From an uncultured delta proteobacterium (GTDB lineage: Bacteria > Desulfobacterota > Syntrophia > Syntrophales > UBA2185): 64,000 bases of DNA. The notes under the pieces are model-generated. The model made no database searches. It had not been told where the DNA came from and worked only from the letters and a program-made list of their open reading frames with translations. The stretch spans positions 1 through 64,000 of the forward strand of contig CAVOID010000014.1 in assembly GCA_963695875.1 (NCBI GenBank), in the 5' to 3' direction. Position numbers and translations under genes: made by a program. Shown here in pieces: positions 1-64,000 of the stretch; position 1 is the first letter of the stretch; each line of letters begins with the position of its first letter.

Positions 1-1
1 G

Positions 2-610
2 CTATGGTTCGGATGGTTCGGTTTCAATGCCGGCAGCGCTCTGGAGGCGAGCGGGCTGGCAGTCAGTGCTTTTGTCAGCACCAATATCGCCGCTGCTGTA
101 GCGGCTATGACATGGGTGATCTGGGAATGGCAGAAACACGGTGCACCAACTATGCTCGGTTTGGTTACGGGTATCATAGCCGGGCTTGGTGCTATTACCC
201 CTGCCTGTGGTTACATAACTCCTCTCATGGCCATACCCATCGGAATCTTTGCAGGCGCCTTCTCCTTCATCGGCGTAACGAAATTGAAACCCAAACTGGG
301 CTACGATGATTCGCTGGATGTTTTCGGCGTTCACGGAGTTTGCGGGGTATGGGGGACGATCGCAACAGGACTCTTTGCACAAAAGGCAATTAATGCAGCC
401 GGGGCAAATGGTTTTCTTTTCGGAAATGTTAAGCTGCTGCTCATACAGGGGTTGTATGTAATTGTCACTGTTTCTTATGCAGTCGTAGTAACCTGGATTC
501 TGTACAAATTTGTGGATGCCTTTATGGGAATGAGGGTTGAGGAAAAAGGTGAAATCGTCGGCCTCGATCTTAATCAGCATCACGAATCTGCCTACACCGT
601 TGTGGAATAA
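2..610 (+). CDS. amtB: ammonium transporter Amt, C-terminal part (5' end outside window)
   Basis: Frame-2 translation from nt 2 gives [18 protein letters not shown]..., the Amt signature, and continues to the stop at 610. The ORF track shows only the internal-Met part, 107..610. Confidence 0.85.
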
Positions 611-624
611 GGAGGGTAACGAAG

Positions 625-966
625 ATGAAATATATAGTTGCGATAATACAGCCCCACAAGCTGGACGAAGTGATGAAGACGCTGGAGGATGTGGAGGTAA
701 ATTTAATGACCGTATCCAATGTCCTGGGGCGTGGCAGGCAGAAAGGGCTTACGGAAGTATACCGGGGCGCCAAGGAGGTGGGCAGCCTTTTAAAGAAGAT
801 CAAGCTGGAGATTGCCGTTAATGAGGATTTTGTGGAACCGACGATACAGGCGATCATCAAGGGAGCCCGGACTGGCGAGATCGGTGACGGGAAGATTTTC
901 GTTTTGGATTTGTATGAGGTTGTCCGCATCCGTACAGGTGAACGCGGCGGCAAGGCCATAGGATAA
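625..966 (+). CDS. glnK: nitrogen regulatory protein P-II (GlnK type, next to amt)
   Basis: 112-aa [19 protein letters not shown]...GRGRQKG...GDGKIFV, typical P-II. It sits directly downstream of amt. Confidence 0.9.
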
Positions 967-985
967 AGAGAGGGGTGTGAGTATT

Positions 986-2404
986 ATGAACCTGAAAGAA
1001 CTAATCAAATATTCCAAGGATAAGCATCTGGAATTCATCGACCTGAAATTTACGGATATCCCGGGTTTGTGGCAGCATATCACGATCCCGATCCAGCAGT
1101 TGGACGAGGATCTTGGTCATCCATGGTATCGGTTTCGACGGCTCCAGCATCCGGGGATTCCAGCCCATCAACGAGAGCGACATGCTGATCAAGCCGGACA
1201 CGGAGACGGCGTTCATCGATCCGTTTATGGCGGATCCCACACTGAGCATGATCTGTAACGTCAAGGACCCCCTCACCCAGGTGCCGTATTCACGGGACCC
1301 GCGGAATGTGGGGCAGAAGGCGGAGAGATACCTTTCCGTCTGCGGGATCGCGGATCAGGTCTTTTTCGGTCCGGAGCCGGAGTTTTATATTTTTGACGAT
1401 GTGCGGTTTGAGCAGACTTACAATACGGGATTTTACAGGGTCGATTCCAAGGAGGGTTTCTGGAATACTGCAAGGGACGAAGGGCCCGAATCTCGGATAC
1501 AAGCCCCGGTACAAGGAAGGCTACTTTCCGGTGCCGCCCACGGACAGCCTTCAGAACCTCAGGGCGAAGATGTGCAAGGTGATGACGGAGGTCGGCATCC
1601 CGGTCATCCTCCATCACCATGAAGTGGCCACGGCAGGGCAGTGCGAGATCGGGGTCAGGATCAATACCCTTGTGGATACGGGGGACATGCTCATGAAGTA
1701 CAAGTATGTGGTGAAGAATGTCGCTTTAGCCCACGGGAAGACGGTAACGTTCATGCCAAAGCCGCTCTTCATGGACAACGGTTCCGGGATGCACGTTCAT
1801 CAGAGCCTCTGGAAGAACGGGAGGAACCTCTTTTACGATACCAGCGGCTACGGGGGGATCAGCAAGCTCTGCAGACACTATATCGGCGGCCTCCTGCACC
1901 ATGCGCCGTCGCTTCTGGCCTTTACGTCTCCCACGACAAACTCATACCGGAGACTTGTTCCGGGGTATGAGGCGCCGATCAATCTTGTATACTCACAGCG
2001 GAACCGGAGCGCCTGCGTCCGGATTCCCATGTATTCTCCGAGCGGAAAAGGCCAAAAGGATAGAGTTCCGCTGTCCCGACTGTTCCTGTAACCCCTACCT
2101 GGCGCTTTCTGCGATGCTCATGGCGGGCTTGGACGGGATCGAGAACGAGATCGAGCCGCCGCCTCCCATCGATGAGGACATCTATGAACTTTCCCATGAG
2201 GAGAAAGCACACATCAAGGCGACGCCCGGGTCACTCTCCGAGGTCCTGGACGCCCTGGAGAAGGAGCATAAGTACCTGTTGAAAGGTGACGTCTTCACCG
2301 AAGACCTGATCCAGATGTGGATAGAATACAAACGGAAAAGAGAGGACGACATGATCAGACTGCGTCCCCATCCTTATGAGTTTGCGCTGTACTATGACAT
2401 TTAA
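986..2404 (+). CDS. glnA: glutamine synthetase type I (GlnA); reading frame broken by about 3 single-base indels in this assembly
   Basis: GS-I homology is spread over four overlapping ORFs (977-1258, 1113-1622, 1306-2091, 1901-2404). Motifs: [54 protein letters not shown] agagagggg, then ATG at 986. Confidence 0.85.
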
Positions 2405-2409
2405 ATAAA

Positions 2410-61294: not shown

Positions 61295-62092
61295 TCATAT
61301 ATCCTTTACAATTGTCGCATCACCGGCCATGACCCTTCTGATGACATCATTTTCATCAGAGATGATGAGAGCCCCAAAATCGTCAATACCAAGGACTTCT
61401 CCTGCCTGAACATTATCGTTAAACACTACCTGAATGTGCTTCCCGACCATGTCCGAGTATCGAAGCCACATATCCTTTAAGGAACCAAACCCCTCCGTGA
61501 GCAGCCTGGTATATAAATATTCTAAATTATCAAATAATTTTACAGTTAAATCAAGCCGTGAAATTTCACTTCCCGCCTCTTCCTTCAGAGATGTGGCAAT
61601 GTCACGAAACGACTCGTCAAAATCAACTCTTTCTATGTTAACATTAATGCCGATTCCTACGATTATGAAATCCACCCCTTTCGCGGCAGAAGCGCTCATC
61701 TCCGTCAGGATGCCGCAGACCTTTTTGCCCCTGATCTGAACATCATTCGGCCATTTGAGCGTTACATTGTCCGGACAGTAAACCGACAAAAGATCGGCAA
61801 CGGCGACACCTGTCATCAGGGTGATCTGGGGGGCAAAAACGGGATCTATCGCAGGCCTCAATATAATAGAGGTATAAATATTACAGCCGGGGGGTGATTG
61901 CCATTGCCTCTTCAGACGGCCCTTTCCTCTGGTCTGACAATCCGCAATGACGACAGTTCCTTCGGGAACGCCACTGATGGCAAGCTGGAAAGCAACGTCG
62001 TTTGTCGAATCGACTTCCTCGAAAAATTGGATATTGTTTCCTATCCGCTTCCCCGAAAGACGGACAGCCAGGATTCGTTCATTAAATTCCAT
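61295..62092 (-). CDS. birA: biotin--[acetyl-CoA-carboxylase] ligase (class I, no HTH)
   Basis: [14 protein letters not shown] biotin-binding motif; 265 aa, intact. Confidence 0.85.
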
Positions 62093-62117
62093 CGCATTGA
62101 TTAAACTGGTGGTAACG

Positions 62118-62953
62118 CTACTCGATCTTCAGGGATATATCGGATGCCGGCACTGAATGGGTAAGCGCTCCGACCGAAATGAAATCAACCCCCGTTTCGG
62201 CAATCTGTCTCACATTTGCGAGGGTGACATTACCGGACGCTTCAAGAGGAACTTTCCCGTTAACGATATGCAACTGCCTTTCTCATATCCTCGTTGGTCA
62301 TATTGTCCAACATTATTATATCCGCACCGGAGATAAGGGCTTCCTCAACTTCCTGAAGATTCTTGACTTCCACTTCGACCTTCAGCGTATGGGGAATGTG
62401 ACCGCGAACCCGGGCGAGCGCTTTGGATATGCCGCCCGCTGCCGCAATGTGGTTGTCTTTGATCAGGACACCGTCATACAGACCAAATCGATGGTTAGTA
62501 CCGCCGCCGATTTTCACGGCATACTTATCAAGGCATCGGAGCCCCGGCATTGTTTTTCTTGTATCGAGAATTTTTGCCGGCGTTCCTTTAATTTCATCGA
62601 CATATTGTCTTGTGAGCGTAGCAATGCCGCACATCCTCTGAAAAAAATTAAGCGCTACTCTCTCCGCAGTCAGGATGCTGCCAAGATTCCCGGATATTTC
62701 GGCCAAGAATCCCCCCCTTCTTAACCACACGCCCGTCTTCACAATTGCATGAGAATTGGATGCTTTCATCCAGGAAAAGAAAAACCTCTCTAAAGACATC
62801 GATGCCGGCCACAACAATATTTGACTTGGCGAAAGCCTTCGCCCTGCCCACCTCTGCACCGGTAAGCGCCGCGGTCGTCGTGATATCCCCTGTACCGATA
62901 TCTTCTTCAAGGGCCGACTGTATTAACCTGCGTATGATATGCTTTTGGATCAT
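62118..62953 (-). CDS. nadC: nicotinate-nucleotide pyrophosphorylase (carboxylating), frameshifts near 62690 and 62270
   Basis: Three consecutive frames carry NadC homology (GTGDITT...; [19 protein letters not shown]; [20 protein letters not shown]; ...SVGALTHS). Confidence 0.85.
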
Positions 62954-63012
62954 GATAAAAGAGACATCCCAATTTTTAAAAAATGAAAGAAAGATTTGAA
63001 AATTTCAACTAG

Positions 63013-63061
63013 GTCATTACGATATGAGATTGCCGCGGAGCTAAAGCTCCTCGCAATGACA
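63013..63061. repeat. REP-like element (gagattgccgcggagc-taaa-gctcctcgcaatgaca) with partial inverted copy
   Basis: Palindromic; located between nadC and valS. Confidence 0.4.
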
Positions 63062-63086
63062 CGAAAAACAATTGTTGATATTCCTT

Positions 63087-64000
63087 TTACCCCATTGCCT
63101 GAAGTCTTTTTAGGGCAGTTTCCAGAACAACCTGCTTCTCTTTGACTTCCCTGAATTTTTCTTCTTCTCTTTCAACTACCGCTTTTGAGGCCTTTGCCAT
63201 GAAATCGCGATTGGCCAGCTTCTTCGAGATTGTCGCCAGATCTTTATTTACCCTGGCCATTTCCTTTTCGAGCCTTGCCTTCTCCCCGGCAATGTCCACC
63301 ACGCCTTCCAGCGACACATATATCCGAATAGGTCCGACAACGCCGGTAGCGGCATTCTTAGGTTCTTCTCCATTACGACTGATGGTCAATGCCTCAAGAT
63401 TGGCCAGATTCATAATGTAACCATTTCCCATTCCAATGATCGCGCCGGATTCATCATCAGGAACAGAGACCATGACCTTTAATTTTTTCGATGGTGCTAT
63501 ATTCATCTCACCCCTGATGTTCCTGATAGAAGTTATTGCATTCATAATAATACTCATTTGTTTCTCTGCAACAAAGTCCTGACAGGTGTCATCCGGTGAG
63601 GGAAATTCACTTATCATAATGGATCTTCCGTCATCCACCATGGTCTGCCATATTTCTTCAGTCACGAAAGGCATGAAGGGATGAAGCAATTTCAAAGAAG
63701 ACTTCATGACATTAAGCAGGGTATGCTGCGCTACACGCCTCTTTGCAGGATCTCCTTTCCCATAAAGTGTCGGTTTGATCAATTCCAGATACCAGTCACA
63801 GAATTCATGCCAGATAAACTGATAAATACTTGAGGCGGCATCATTAAATCGATATTCATCCAGAGCTCTGATAACTTCGGTAACAGTTATGTTCAGTCGA
63901 TGCTTGATCCACCTGTCGGGAAGGGATTCATCGCCTTTATCTACATGAACCTCTTCGGACGGATAATCTTCCAGATTCATGAGGGAAAACCGGGTTGCAT
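63087..64000 (-). CDS. valS: valine--tRNA ligase, C-terminal portion (anticodon-binding + coiled-coil tail); continues beyond window
   Basis: ...WHEFCDWYLELIKP...; C-terminal coiled coil EKFREVKEKQVVLETALKRLQAMG*. Confidence 0.85.
   Translation of the reverse strand, partial: ATRFSLMNLEDYPSEEVHVDKGDESLPDRWIKHRLNITVTEVIRALDEYRFNDAASSIYQFIWHEFCDWYLELIKPTLYGKGDPAKRRVAQHTLLNVMKSSLKLLHPFMPFVTEEIWQTMVDDGRSIMISEFPSPDDTCQDFVAEKQMSIIMNAITSIRNIRGEMNIAPSKKLKVMVSVPDDESGAIIGMGNGYIMNLANLEALTISRNGEEPKNAATGVVGPIRIYVSLEGVVDIAGEKARLEKEMARVNKDLATISKKLANRDFMAKASKAVVEREEEKFREVKEKQVVLETALKRLQAMG

What the first reader, a model, noticed from the sequence alone, without database searches (positions are those of the whole stretch)
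1..64000. Pervasive single-base frameshifts are concentrated in homopolymers, so they are likely assembly errors rather than pseudogenes
At least 20 otherwise well-conserved genes are split across frames: glnA, the sigma54 RR, the HK, kdpA, kdpC, kdpD-N, rlmN, CoA-transferase 2, etfA, fixC, acd2, etfB2, etfA2, rSAM, relE, lysE, coaE, coaX, nadC and the HNH gene.

Neighbouring long genes are intact: kdpB, aconitase, icd, and the 1089-aa hybrid kinase.

The two junctions I examined are both homopolymer deletions:
- kdpA near 9168: gat gcc agt cgg is readable as gat gcc Cag tcg gag, so ccc became cc.
- relE near 55247: cctt aaa agg is readable as cct tTa aaa ggt, so ttt became tt.

This pattern is typical of uncorrected long-read or 454-type errors. 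All pseudogene-like calls here should be treated as artefacts. ORF boundaries in this window are approximate.
Basis: seen in the sequence. Interest (0 to 1): 0.55.

Follow-up and report, generated by a model that had tools for sequence, protein, structure and literature searches.

The report
Random single-base assembly errors, not homopolymer slips

Summary
The frameshifts are real in the sequence. Twenty conserved genes of this Syntrophales contig are split by about 49 one-base indels.

Its mechanism does not.
- **Direction:** 42 events are +1 insertions. Three are firm -1 deletions and four are unresolved.
- **Context:** of 24 insertions placed exactly against relatives, 16 add a base unlike either neighbour, 7 make a 2-base run and 1 a 3-base run. 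This matches random insertion.
- **Homopolymers are sound:** 544 runs of 4 or more bases were checked; only one coding run touches an indel. A G7 run about 10 nt from a nadC frameshift is intact.
- **No gene decay:** with the extra bases removed, every gene reads through with no stops. dN/dS is 0.04-0.15, against 0.04-0.24 for intact neighbours.
- **Assembly-specific:** relatives 79-97.5% identical lack the indels. The truncated products are on record only for this 136-kb public contig; cluster mates at 90% identity or more are full length.
- **Distribution:** events come in patches of 0.7-5.5 kb, separated by clean stretches of up to 15 kb.

Best reading: random-context, insertion-biased consensus errors from unevenly supported, error-prone reads. 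Interest is low.

The parts
986..2404 (+). glnA, three +1 insertions: T at 1113/1114, A at 1480/1481, and one at about 2042-2070
   Evidence: Gaps in L152, L153 and L154 (92-97.5% nt identity) at 1111-1115 and 1480. Frames run 2->3->1->2 by tblastn. After correction there are 15-20 synonymous and 1 non-synonymous differences.
4390..5726 (+). sigma54-type response regulator, five +1 insertions at about 4853, 4893, 5000, 5155 and 5355
   Evidence: Alignment to L149. ORF frames step by +1 each time.
6047..7904 (+). HAMP/HisKA histidine kinase, seven +1 insertions at about 6369, 6521, 6980, 7030, 7446, 7621 and 7678. The last three restore the frame, so the ORF stays open over an out-of-frame stretch.
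   Evidence: tblastn with the L149 kinase gives frames 2,3,1,2,3. Gaps against L149.
8114..9921 (+). kdpA, net +2 within 9164-9177 (two 1-nt insertions 7-10 nt apart)
   Evidence: L151 and L149 each show two 1-nt gaps. The two-insertion model needs 8 and 10 mismatches, against 9 and 12 for a deletion plus an extra codon.
12007..12557 (+). kdpC, three +1 insertions: C at 12045, A at 12370, G at 12438
   Evidence: Supported by L148, L151 and L149.
12561..14237 (+). kdpD N-terminal-type sensor (KdpD/Usp/PTS_EIIA_2), three +1 insertions: A at 13024, one at 13410-13413, C at 13665
   Evidence: L148, L151 and L149. Corrected gene: 94.1% aa identity, dN/dS 0.138, no stops.
23316..24455 (+). rlmN, three +1 insertions: C at 23528, one at 23783-23786, G at 24223
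   Evidence: 4/4, 4/4 and 5/5 covering relatives agree. RlmN_N and Radical_SAM hits.
25892..27242 (+). CoA-transferase family III (second copy), one +1 insertion, C at 26966
   Evidence: 6/6 relatives agree. The 378-aa truncated product sits in a cluster whose other members are 449 aa.
41414..42426 (+). etfA (first copy), one -1-equivalent event at about 41798-41815: one deletion or two insertions about 13 nt apart. Unresolved.
   Evidence: ETF profile positions 1-124 then 129-179 fall in different frames. PDB alignments do not decide between the models.
42572..43858 (+). fixC (ETF-quinone oxidoreductase): +1 at 43220, -1 at about 43313, -1 at about 43327, +1 at about 43790-43797. The last makes the called ORF 43294-44142 run on into fixX.
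   Evidence: L070 and L072 gaps. tblastn with the 428-aa homologue P0435 gives frames 2,3,1,2. Codon-level reading.
44281..45426 (+). acyl-CoA dehydrogenase 2, three +1 insertions: one at 44629-44632, C at 44866, T at 45102
   Evidence: L072 gaps. The 212-aa truncated product is on record only for the source contig.
45639..46404 (+). etfB (second copy), one +1 insertion, A at 45789/45790
   Evidence: L072 gap.
46418..47366 (+). etfA (second copy): -1 deletion at 46471, +1 (G) at 46561, +1 at about 47045-47049
   Evidence: L072 gaps. Frame reading.
52766..54341 (-). SbtM radical SAM/SPASM maturase, one +1 insertion at about 53137-53143
   Evidence: TIGR04082 positions 1-394 then 355-516 fall in two frames. 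tblastn with the 528-540-aa homologues.
55121..55377 (+). relE/parE toxin, one -1-equivalent event within 55213-55249, in or next to short T/A runs. Unresolved.
   Evidence: ORF overlap. ParE_toxin scores for four reconstructions.
56573..57460 (+). HNH_5-domain gene, apparent +1 at about 57160-57185 and a -1-equivalent at about 57255-57270. ORF chain only.
   Evidence: HNH_5 hit in the first fragment only. Frame reading.
58512..59146 (-). lysE-family exporter, one -1-equivalent event within 58838-58867. Unresolved.
   Evidence: LysE profile positions 1-80 then 90-192 fall in two frames. Frame reading.
59754..60376 (-). coaE, two +1 insertions at about 60243-60248 and about 60055
   Evidence: CoaE profile positions 3-45, 42-103 and 105-177 fall in three frames. 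Frame reading.
60531..61293 (-). coaX (type III pantothenate kinase), one +1 insertion at about 61125-61135
   Evidence: Pan_kinase positions 1-53 then 51-205. tblastn with P0453.
62121..62953 (-). nadC, two +1 insertions at 62707-62710 and at 62265. A G7 run about 10 nt upstream of the first is intact.
   Evidence: QRPTase profile coordinates. tblastn with the 277-aa homologue P0471 at 93-99% identity gives three frames. Codon-level reading.

Best explanation
The window is part of a deposited 136,192-nt metagenome-derived contig of a Syntrophales bacterium. Its consensus carries about 49 single-base indel errors.

About 85% are insertions of an arbitrary base at an arbitrary position. The rest are single-base deletions. 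No accompanying substitution errors were detected.

The errors fall in patches of 0.7-5.5 kb at roughly one per 250-400 nt. The patches are separated by error-free stretches of up to 15 kb.

The organism's genes are intact. Gene calling on the contig breaks 20 of them, hides some errors inside still-open ORFs, and fuses fixC to fixX.

**Shown:**
- the indels, their direction and their sequence context;
- their absence from relatives;
- the clean reading frames once they are removed;
- their presence in the public record of this contig only;
- their clustering.

**Inferred:** they arose when a consensus was built from error-prone single-molecule reads with uneven support (low local depth or patchy polishing). 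The profile is insertion-dominated and shows no homopolymer bias and no detectable substitution errors. That resembles what is reported for PacBio RS II continuous long reads more than nanopore R9, HiFi, 454 or Ion Torrent profiles. The platform itself is not known.
For: 1. **Direction.** 42 +1 events against at most 7 -1 events. This comes from DNA alignment to relatives at 78-97.5% identity and from frame order. The binomial P computed at an earlier 42:5 count was 2.5e-8.
2. **Context.** The inserted base sits in a run of 1/2/3 in 16/7/1 of 24 cases. Random expectation is 13.7/6.1/2.7/1.5 (chi-square P = 0.34). The inserted bases are C7, G7, A6, T4. There is no sequence motif within 8 nt either side.
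3. **Homopolymers.** Of 544 runs of 4 nt or more covered by references at 85% identity or more, 12 touch a gap. Eleven of these are intergenic or specific to one reference. The G7 run in nadC is correct.
4. **No decay.** Corrected genes have no in-frame stops and dN/dS of 0.04-0.15, against 0.04-0.24 for intact neighbours. glnA shows 15-20 synonymous and 1 non-synonymous change. The mismatch rate is not raised within 10 nt of the sites. The window-versus-L150 amino-acid differences in aconitase lie at variable columns.
5. **Assembly-specific.** The truncated products are recorded only for the 136,192-nt NCBI/ENA contig. Cluster mates at 90% identity or more are full length: fixC 428 aa, CoA-transferase 449 aa, SbtM 528-540 aa, nadC 277 aa.
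6. **Clustering.** Variance/mean is 2.25 in 2-kb bins (P about 1.5e-4). The longest clean gap is 14.8 kb (P about 5e-5). Eight neighbour distances are 100 nt or less, against 3.3 expected.
7. **Literature.** RS II continuous-long-read errors run substitution:insertion:deletion 6:55:39 with no homopolymer bias (PMC9713900). Residual nanopore and HiFi assembly errors are mostly homopolymer-length errors, with deletions dominant in nanopore data (PMC8812927, PMC12007338, PMC9262707).
Against: - No reads or quality values are available, so the errors are inferred from comparison only.
- Comparators of the same species cover only glnA (97.5%) and an already clean stretch (99.3%). The other comparators are about 78-92% identical.
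- The 6:1 insertion excess is stronger than the raw-read ratio reported for any platform. How a consensus step would enrich insertions is not explained.
- The cause of the patchiness is not shown. Association with GC is weak: 0.55 around sites against 0.48 overall, and some patches have ordinary GC.
- Four -1-equivalent events (etfA1, relE, HNH, lysE) are unresolved. Those in accessory genes (relE toxin, HNH) could be genuine mutations.
Confidence: 0.88

Rival explanations
1. One reading: homopolymer-length miscalls, mainly deletions, typical of 454, Ion Torrent or uncorrected nanopore data.
For: A few events sit in or beside short runs.
- The relE junction interval contains T4 and A4 runs.
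- The etfA2 deletion at 46471 abuts a T4 run.
- The lysE and HNH -1-equivalents can each be read as A4->A3.
- One fixC insertion can be read as A4->A5.
Against: - 42 of about 49 events are insertions.
- 16 of 24 exactly placed insertions add a base unlike both neighbours, and none lies in a run of 4 or more.
- The distribution equals random expectation.
- 174 runs of 5 nt or more under close references are unaffected in coding sequence.
- The G7 run about 10 nt from a nadC frameshift is correct.
- The kdpA example is two extra bases, not a lost C.
Confidence: 0.03
2. The frameshifts are real mutations: recent mass pseudogenisation, or a mutator or hypermutation episode in this population.
For: - The indels are in the deposited sequence.
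- Their clustering could in principle reflect localised mutagenesis.
- Accessory genes such as relE, HNH and lysE are plausible targets of real inactivation.
Against: - Central-metabolism and cofactor-biosynthesis genes carry 1-3 frameshifts each: glnA, coaE, coaX, nadC and rlmN.
- kdpA, kdpC and kdpD are broken while kdpB is not.
- There are no in-frame stops, no larger deletions and no rise in dN/dS.
- An insertion excess with the inserted base unlike its neighbours is the opposite of the usual bacterial indel spectrum, which is deletion-biased and slippage-driven (established knowledge).
- A 97.5% identical glnA lacks both insertions.
- All cluster mates at 90% identity or more are full length.
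Confidence: 0.05
3. The frameshifts are decoded: programmed +1 ribosomal frameshifting, transcriptional slippage or quadruplet decoding restores the proteins.
For: The shifts are predominantly in one direction (+1).
Against: - No shared motif surrounds the sites. Information content at every position within 8 nt either side is within random expectation.
- There are no slippery runs.
- There are up to seven sites per gene.
- The sites are absent from close relatives.
- -1 events are mixed in.
Confidence: 0.01

Closest known systems
Gene fragmentation by residual indels in long-read (meta)genome assemblies (IDEEL-type truncation; PMC9262707, PMC12007338, PMC8812927)
   Same: Conserved genes are split by 1-nt indels. 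Homologues elsewhere are full length. The density (about 77 indels per 100 kb) is of the order reported for low-coverage long-read assemblies. Reference- or read-based polishing would repair it.
   Different: The published residual errors are mostly homopolymer-length errors, with deletions dominant in nanopore data. Here insertions dominate, the context is random, and homopolymers are correct.
Raw error profile of PacBio RS II continuous long reads (PMC9713900)
   Same: Insertion-dominated (substitution:insertion:deletion 6:55:39), few substitutions, no homopolymer bias.
   Different: That is a property of raw reads, not of a consensus. The excess here (about 6:1) is stronger. The platform of this contig is unknown.
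Pseudogene-rich genomes under reductive evolution, such as Mycobacterium leprae or recent symbionts (own knowledge)
   Same: Many frameshifted genes lie side by side with intact ones.
   Different: Such genomes also show stop codons, deletions and relaxed selection. None of these is seen here.

Membership tests
Homopolymer-length sequencing/consensus errors (454, Ion Torrent, nanopore R9, HiFi) | Indels lie inside homopolymer runs, usually 3-4 nt or longer, and change the run length | tested here: not met
   The run length of the inserted base is 1/2/3 in 16/7/1 of 24 cases, equal to random expectation.
Homopolymer-length sequencing/consensus errors (454, Ion Torrent, nanopore R9, HiFi) | Long homopolymers are frequently miscalled | tested here: not met
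   544 runs of 4 nt or more under references at 85% identity or more. Only one coding run (46467-46470) touches an indel. The G7 run in nadC is intact.
Homopolymer-length sequencing/consensus errors (454, Ion Torrent, nanopore R9, HiFi) | Deletions equal or outnumber insertions (nanopore assemblies) | tested here: not met
   42 insertions against at most 7 deletions.
Random-context indel errors of single-molecule reads carried into a consensus | Insertion-biased, context-independent 1-nt indels without substitution errors | tested here: met
   The profile is as described for RS II continuous long reads in PMC9713900.
Random-context indel errors of single-molecule reads carried into a consensus | Errors absent from accurate reads of the same sample; error patches coincide with low depth or unpolished stretches | not testable with these tools
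   No reads or depth information are available. Clustering itself is shown.
Genuine pseudogenes (gene decay) | Relaxed selection: raised dN/dS, in-frame stops, larger deletions | tested here: not met
   dN/dS is 0.04-0.15 after correction, with no stops. glnA has 1 non-synonymous against 15-20 synonymous changes.
Genuine pseudogenes (gene decay) | Lesions shared by other genomes of the lineage | tested here: not met
   Relatives at 78-97.5% identity lack them. The truncated products are recorded only for this contig. Same-species coverage is thin.
Programmed frameshifting / recoding | A conserved slippery or stimulatory motif at the shift site, conserved among relatives | tested here: not met
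   No motif. The sites are absent in relatives.

The most novel reading that the evidence does not exclude
The insertions are real. On this reading a natural Syntrophales population, or a dominant clone in the sample, recently suffered a burst of non-slippage, template-independent single-base insertions in localised kilobase patches. These disabled about 20 genes, including glnA, coaE, coaX and nadC, and the DNA was sampled before further decay.
Probability: 0.02. Interest if true: 0.7.

Novelty: not a real feature. Interest (0 to 1): 0.1.

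Why it matters
The value is practical rather than biological.
- **Annotation:** the 20 'pseudogenes' should not be read as gene loss in this Syntrophales genome. Its nitrogen assimilation, Kdp potassium uptake, CoA and NAD biosynthesis, and ETF/acyl-CoA dehydrogenase modules should be treated as intact.
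- **Choice of repair tool:** because the errors are not homopolymer-linked, homopolymer-aware filters or polishers would miss them.
- **Hidden errors:** open ORFs can still hide them. Compensated shifts occur in the kinase and in etfA2, and fixC is fused to fixX. Protein sequences taken from this contig need reference-guided or read-based correction.
- **Completeness estimates:** marker-gene completeness scores for this genome may be depressed by the split genes.

Tried and rejected
- **Exact-product look-ups.** kdpB, the hybrid kinase, queF, birA and etfB1 were searched to fetch the source contig or same-species contigs. None was on record in that index. Only the P-II protein gave contigs.
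- **Chimeric protein query.** A 1466-aa query built from nine gene fragments was meant to fetch close homologues of many genes in one search. It returned only long multidomain proteins (ankyrins and the like) and wasted the third protein search.
- **Hexamer coding-potential model.** A model trained on intact ORFs, meant to trace frames without references, over-fitted the training genes and did not discriminate.
- **etfA1 junction.** PDB alignments leave one deletion and two insertions equally possible.
- **relE junction.** Pfam scores of four reconstructions differ by less than 6 bits.
- **Possible causes of the patches, all negative.** There was no raised mismatch rate near sites, only a weak GC association, and no motif.
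- **In-silico spiking of the test window.** Considered and rejected, because the truncated products are in the public record of the contig.

Full report
**What the window is**

The 1089-aa hybrid kinase and other genes place the window in Syntrophales. The best species-level genome hits are 63-66% identical in protein. Closer DNA relatives were found in metagenomes and assemblies:
- L070 and L151, both from assembly PDVH01, about 89-90% nt identity, covering 7.8-20.7, 22.4-38.3 and 42.6-44.0 kb
- L148 (89%)
- L149 (78%, from a 2.9-Mb contig)
- L002, L072, L073 and L074 (about 79-87%)
- L152, L153 and L154 (92-97.5% over amtB-glnB-glnA)
- L150 (99.33% over 18235-21238)

Exact-sequence look-ups show that the window's proteins are on record for one contig of 136,192 nt held by NCBI and ENA. 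That index did not return the contig itself.

Yes, as far as broken genes go. ORF listing shows chains of short ORFs in successive frames.

For twelve genes, DNA alignment to relatives shows frame-breaking 1-nt gaps. These are glnA, the sigma54 response regulator, the histidine kinase, kdpA, kdpC, kdpD, rlmN, the second CoA-transferase, fixC, acd2, etfB2 and etfA2.

For seven more genes, adjacent fragments in different frames match consecutive parts of one Pfam or NCBIfam profile, or of one homologue at 90% identity or more. These are etfA1, the radical SAM gene, relE/parE, lysE, coaE, coaX and nadC.

The HNH gene is the weakest case. Only its first fragment has a family hit.

The intact neighbours are intact. 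kdpB is 673 aa like its homologues. The aconitase region has no gap against the 99.3% identical L150.

One naming correction: the Iso_dh gene (icd) is 22169-23422, while the ORF after aconitase is an RNase_H_2/HHH_5 protein.

**Direction of the events**

Against every comparator, the frame-breaking differences are overwhelmingly single extra bases in the window. Where several relatives cover a site they agree:
- 4/4 at 23528 and at 23784
- 5/5 at 24222
- 6/6 at 26964

Frame order tells the same story without any alignment:
- glnA runs through frames 2,3,1,2.
- The kinase runs 2,3,1,2,3, then takes three more insertions that bring it back into frame.
- The regulator takes five +1 steps.
- kdpC, kdpD, rlmN and acd2 take three each.
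- On the minus strand, coaE, coaX, nadC and SbtM also shift in the +1 sense.

The count is 42 insertions.

Three single-base deletions are firm. One is at 46471 in etfA2. It is compensated 90 nt later by an insertion, so the ORF stays open over about 30 garbled codons. Two are about 14-20 nt apart in fixC, at about 43313 and 43327.

Four events are '-1-equivalent' and could be one deletion or two nearby insertions: etfA1, relE, the second HNH junction, and lysE.

A possible twenty-first gene, a GNAT acetyltransferase, seems to have lost its start through a +1 shift near 59625-59650. This is unverified.

**Sequence context**

For 24 insertions I deleted each base of the window in turn and kept the deletion(s) that best matched the ungapped relatives.
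- The inserted base is unlike both neighbours in 16 cases, makes a 2-base run in 7, and possibly a 3-base run in 1.
- The inserted bases are C7, G7, A6, T4.
- Simulated insertion of a random base at a random position gives run lengths 1/2/3/4+ with frequencies 0.57/0.25/0.11/0.06. The observed counts do not differ from this (P = 0.34).

Conversely, 544 homopolymers of 4 nt or more lie under references at 85% identity or more. Only 12 touch an alignment gap. Eleven of these are intergenic or peculiar to one reference.

In nadC, a G7 run encoding KKGG is correct about 10 nt upstream of a frameshift that sits in CTTGGCC.

No motif surrounds the sites. The mismatch rate to relatives is not raised within 10 nt of them.

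The events placed only through protein homologues also need no long run. Examples are TAT[C]GTT in nadC and AAG[C]GAG in etfA2.

So the statement 'concentrated in homopolymers' is not borne out.

*kdpA.* Between GAT and GGCAAC the window has 11 nt where both relatives have 9. Removing two bases gives VDAVGGNMEGKE, against VDSAGGNMEGKE in L149. This needs fewer mismatches than adding a C, which in addition requires a codon absent from both relatives.

It stays unresolved.

**Artefact or biology?**

With the extra columns removed, the broken genes read through without any stop. They are as conserved as their neighbours against the same relative:

| Gene | Amino-acid identity | dN/dS |
|---|---|---|
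| kdpA | 91.5% | 0.067 |
| kdpC | 90.2% | 0.145 |
| kdpD | 94.1% | 0.138 |
| rlmN | 92.2% | 0.133 |
| CoA-transferase 2 | 95.8% | 0.038 |
| kdpB (intact) | 94.7% | 0.055 |
| aconitase (intact) | 92.6% | 0.086 |
| hybrid kinase (intact) | 87.7% | 0.241 |

Further points against gene decay:
- glnA, despite three frameshifts, differs from 92-97.5% identical relatives by 15-20 synonymous codons and one non-synonymous codon.
- The amino-acid differences between the window and L150 in aconitase fall at variable alignment columns. So there is no sign of substitution errors either.
- The truncated products are in the public protein collection, and each is recorded only for the 136,192-nt contig. Examples are the 212-aa acd2 piece, 217-aa fixC piece, 160-aa kdpD piece, 404-aa SbtM piece, 378-aa CoA-transferase piece, 290-aa kinase piece and 101-aa nadC piece.
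- Their cluster mates at 90% identity or more from other assemblies are full length: 428, 449, 528-540 and 277 aa.

This also rules out the idea that the window was altered for the exercise.

Real mutation is therefore very unlikely. It would require up to seven hits in one gene, and hits in glnA, coaE, coaX, nadC and rlmN. It would also require no other decay, and a spectrum opposite to the usual deletion-biased, slippage-driven bacterial one (the last point from general knowledge). Recoding is excluded by the lack of any motif and by the absence of the sites in relatives.

**Distribution**

The events are clustered.
- Variance/mean is 2.25 in 2-kb bins (P about 1.5e-4).
- The longest event-free stretch is 14.8 kb (P about 5e-5).
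- Eight neighbour distances are 100 nt or less, against 3.3 expected.

The patches are about 1.1-2.1, 4.85-7.7, 12.0-13.7, 23.5-24.2, 41.8-47.1 and 53.1-62.7 kb, with isolated events at 9.17 and 26.97 kb.

The patches do not respect operons. kdpA, kdpC and kdpD are hit but kdpB is not.

GC explains little: 0.55 around sites against 0.48 overall.

**Most likely origin**

The origin is inferred, not shown.

Published profiles say that residual errors of nanopore and HiFi assemblies are mainly homopolymer-length errors, with deletions dominant for nanopore (PMC8812927, PMC12007338, PMC9262707). PacBio RS II continuous long reads, by contrast, have substitution:insertion:deletion of about 6:55:39 and no homopolymer bias (PMC9713900).

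The window's profile is indel-only, insertion-rich and context-free, and it comes in local bursts. That fits a consensus drawn from few error-prone single-molecule reads, or one polished only in part.

The overall density, about 77 indels per 100 kb, is in the range expected for low-coverage long-read assemblies.

I cannot name the platform. I also cannot explain why insertions outnumber deletions 6:1 rather than about 1.4:1.

**Verdict**

The finding is a genuine property of the sequence, but it is an artefact of the assembly. Its mechanistic claim does not.

The feature is ordinary and of low scientific interest. The useful corrections are:
- The errors are non-homopolymeric insertions.
- Some hide inside open ORFs.
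- One creates a false fixC-fixX fusion.
- The in-frame TGA codons of the neighbouring sbtA gene are probably selenocysteine codons rather than part of the error set.

Noticed in passing
window 54494-54748 (-), next to SbtM at 52766-54341 (-): A small ORF with a good ribosome-binding site matches TIGR04081, the SbtA thio(seleno)oxazole RiPP precursor leader (45.4 bits, cutoff 30.5). It continues through three in-frame TGA codons at 54641-54643, 54575-54577 and 54509-54511, within a repeated core ...PAKPGSS-U-xGTKP.... A 6-bp hairpin starts 14 nt after each of the first two TGAs: GGAUGC-AGGUG-GCAUCC and GGGUGC-AGGUA-GCACCC, which differ by a compensatory change. This looks like selenocysteine recoding in a known RiPP system. 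The GSSUxG context differs from the GGUG motif described in PMC9204691. These stops should not be counted among the assembly errors.
   Followed up: partly
window 48173-48337 (-): There is a full-length match to Rfam RF02001, the group II intron D1-D4-3 5' region (137.9 bits). No domain V/VI match reached the gathering score and no reverse-transcriptase ORF lies downstream. The neighbouring ORF on the other strand is a DUF429 protein. This is probably a truncated intron remnant.
   Followed up: partly
window 38285-42570: A 4.3-kb block (TetR regulator, acyl-CoA dehydrogenase, etfB, etfA) is absent from the otherwise collinear relatives. L072 bridges the point with about 80 nt. L070 has about 780 nt there, including a divergent TetR-like stretch. 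The block gives the window a second acd-etfBA set beside fixCX-acd2-etfB2A2.
   Followed up: partly
window 7446-7678; 46471-46561; 43294-44142: Some ORFs look intact but carry compensated frameshifts. The histidine kinase has three insertions and etfA2 has a deletion plus an insertion. The called ORF 43294-44142 is a false fusion of the middle of fixC with fixX, caused by an insertion at about 43790-43797. The true fixC C-terminus (...HLTLGELWSIFKDLKEVMKI) is in another frame.
   Followed up: yes
window 59540-59700 (-): The GNAT acetyltransferase at 59168-59536 lacks the first about 28 profile positions and a start codon in its own frame.
   Followed up: partly
window 19799-21337 and 22169-23422: The ORF directly after aconitase is an RNase_H_2/HHH_5 protein, not isocitrate dehydrogenase. 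The Iso_dh family gene is 22169-23422. Both are intact.
   Followed up: yes
window 54913-57460: A small accessory island lies here: an RHH antitoxin, the frameshifted ParE/RelE toxin, a DUF3800 protein (55459-56469) and an HNH_5 endonuclease-like gene. None has a close relative in the fetched loci. Lesions here are the ones most likely to include genuine mutations.
   Followed up: no
L070 versus window 27485/27617 and 27622-28721: Relative L070 carries a compensated -1/+1 pair of its own and lacks 1.1 kb of the AAA_33-domain gene. Some comparators are therefore imperfect too. Only events supported by several relatives, or by frame order, were counted.
   Followed up: yes
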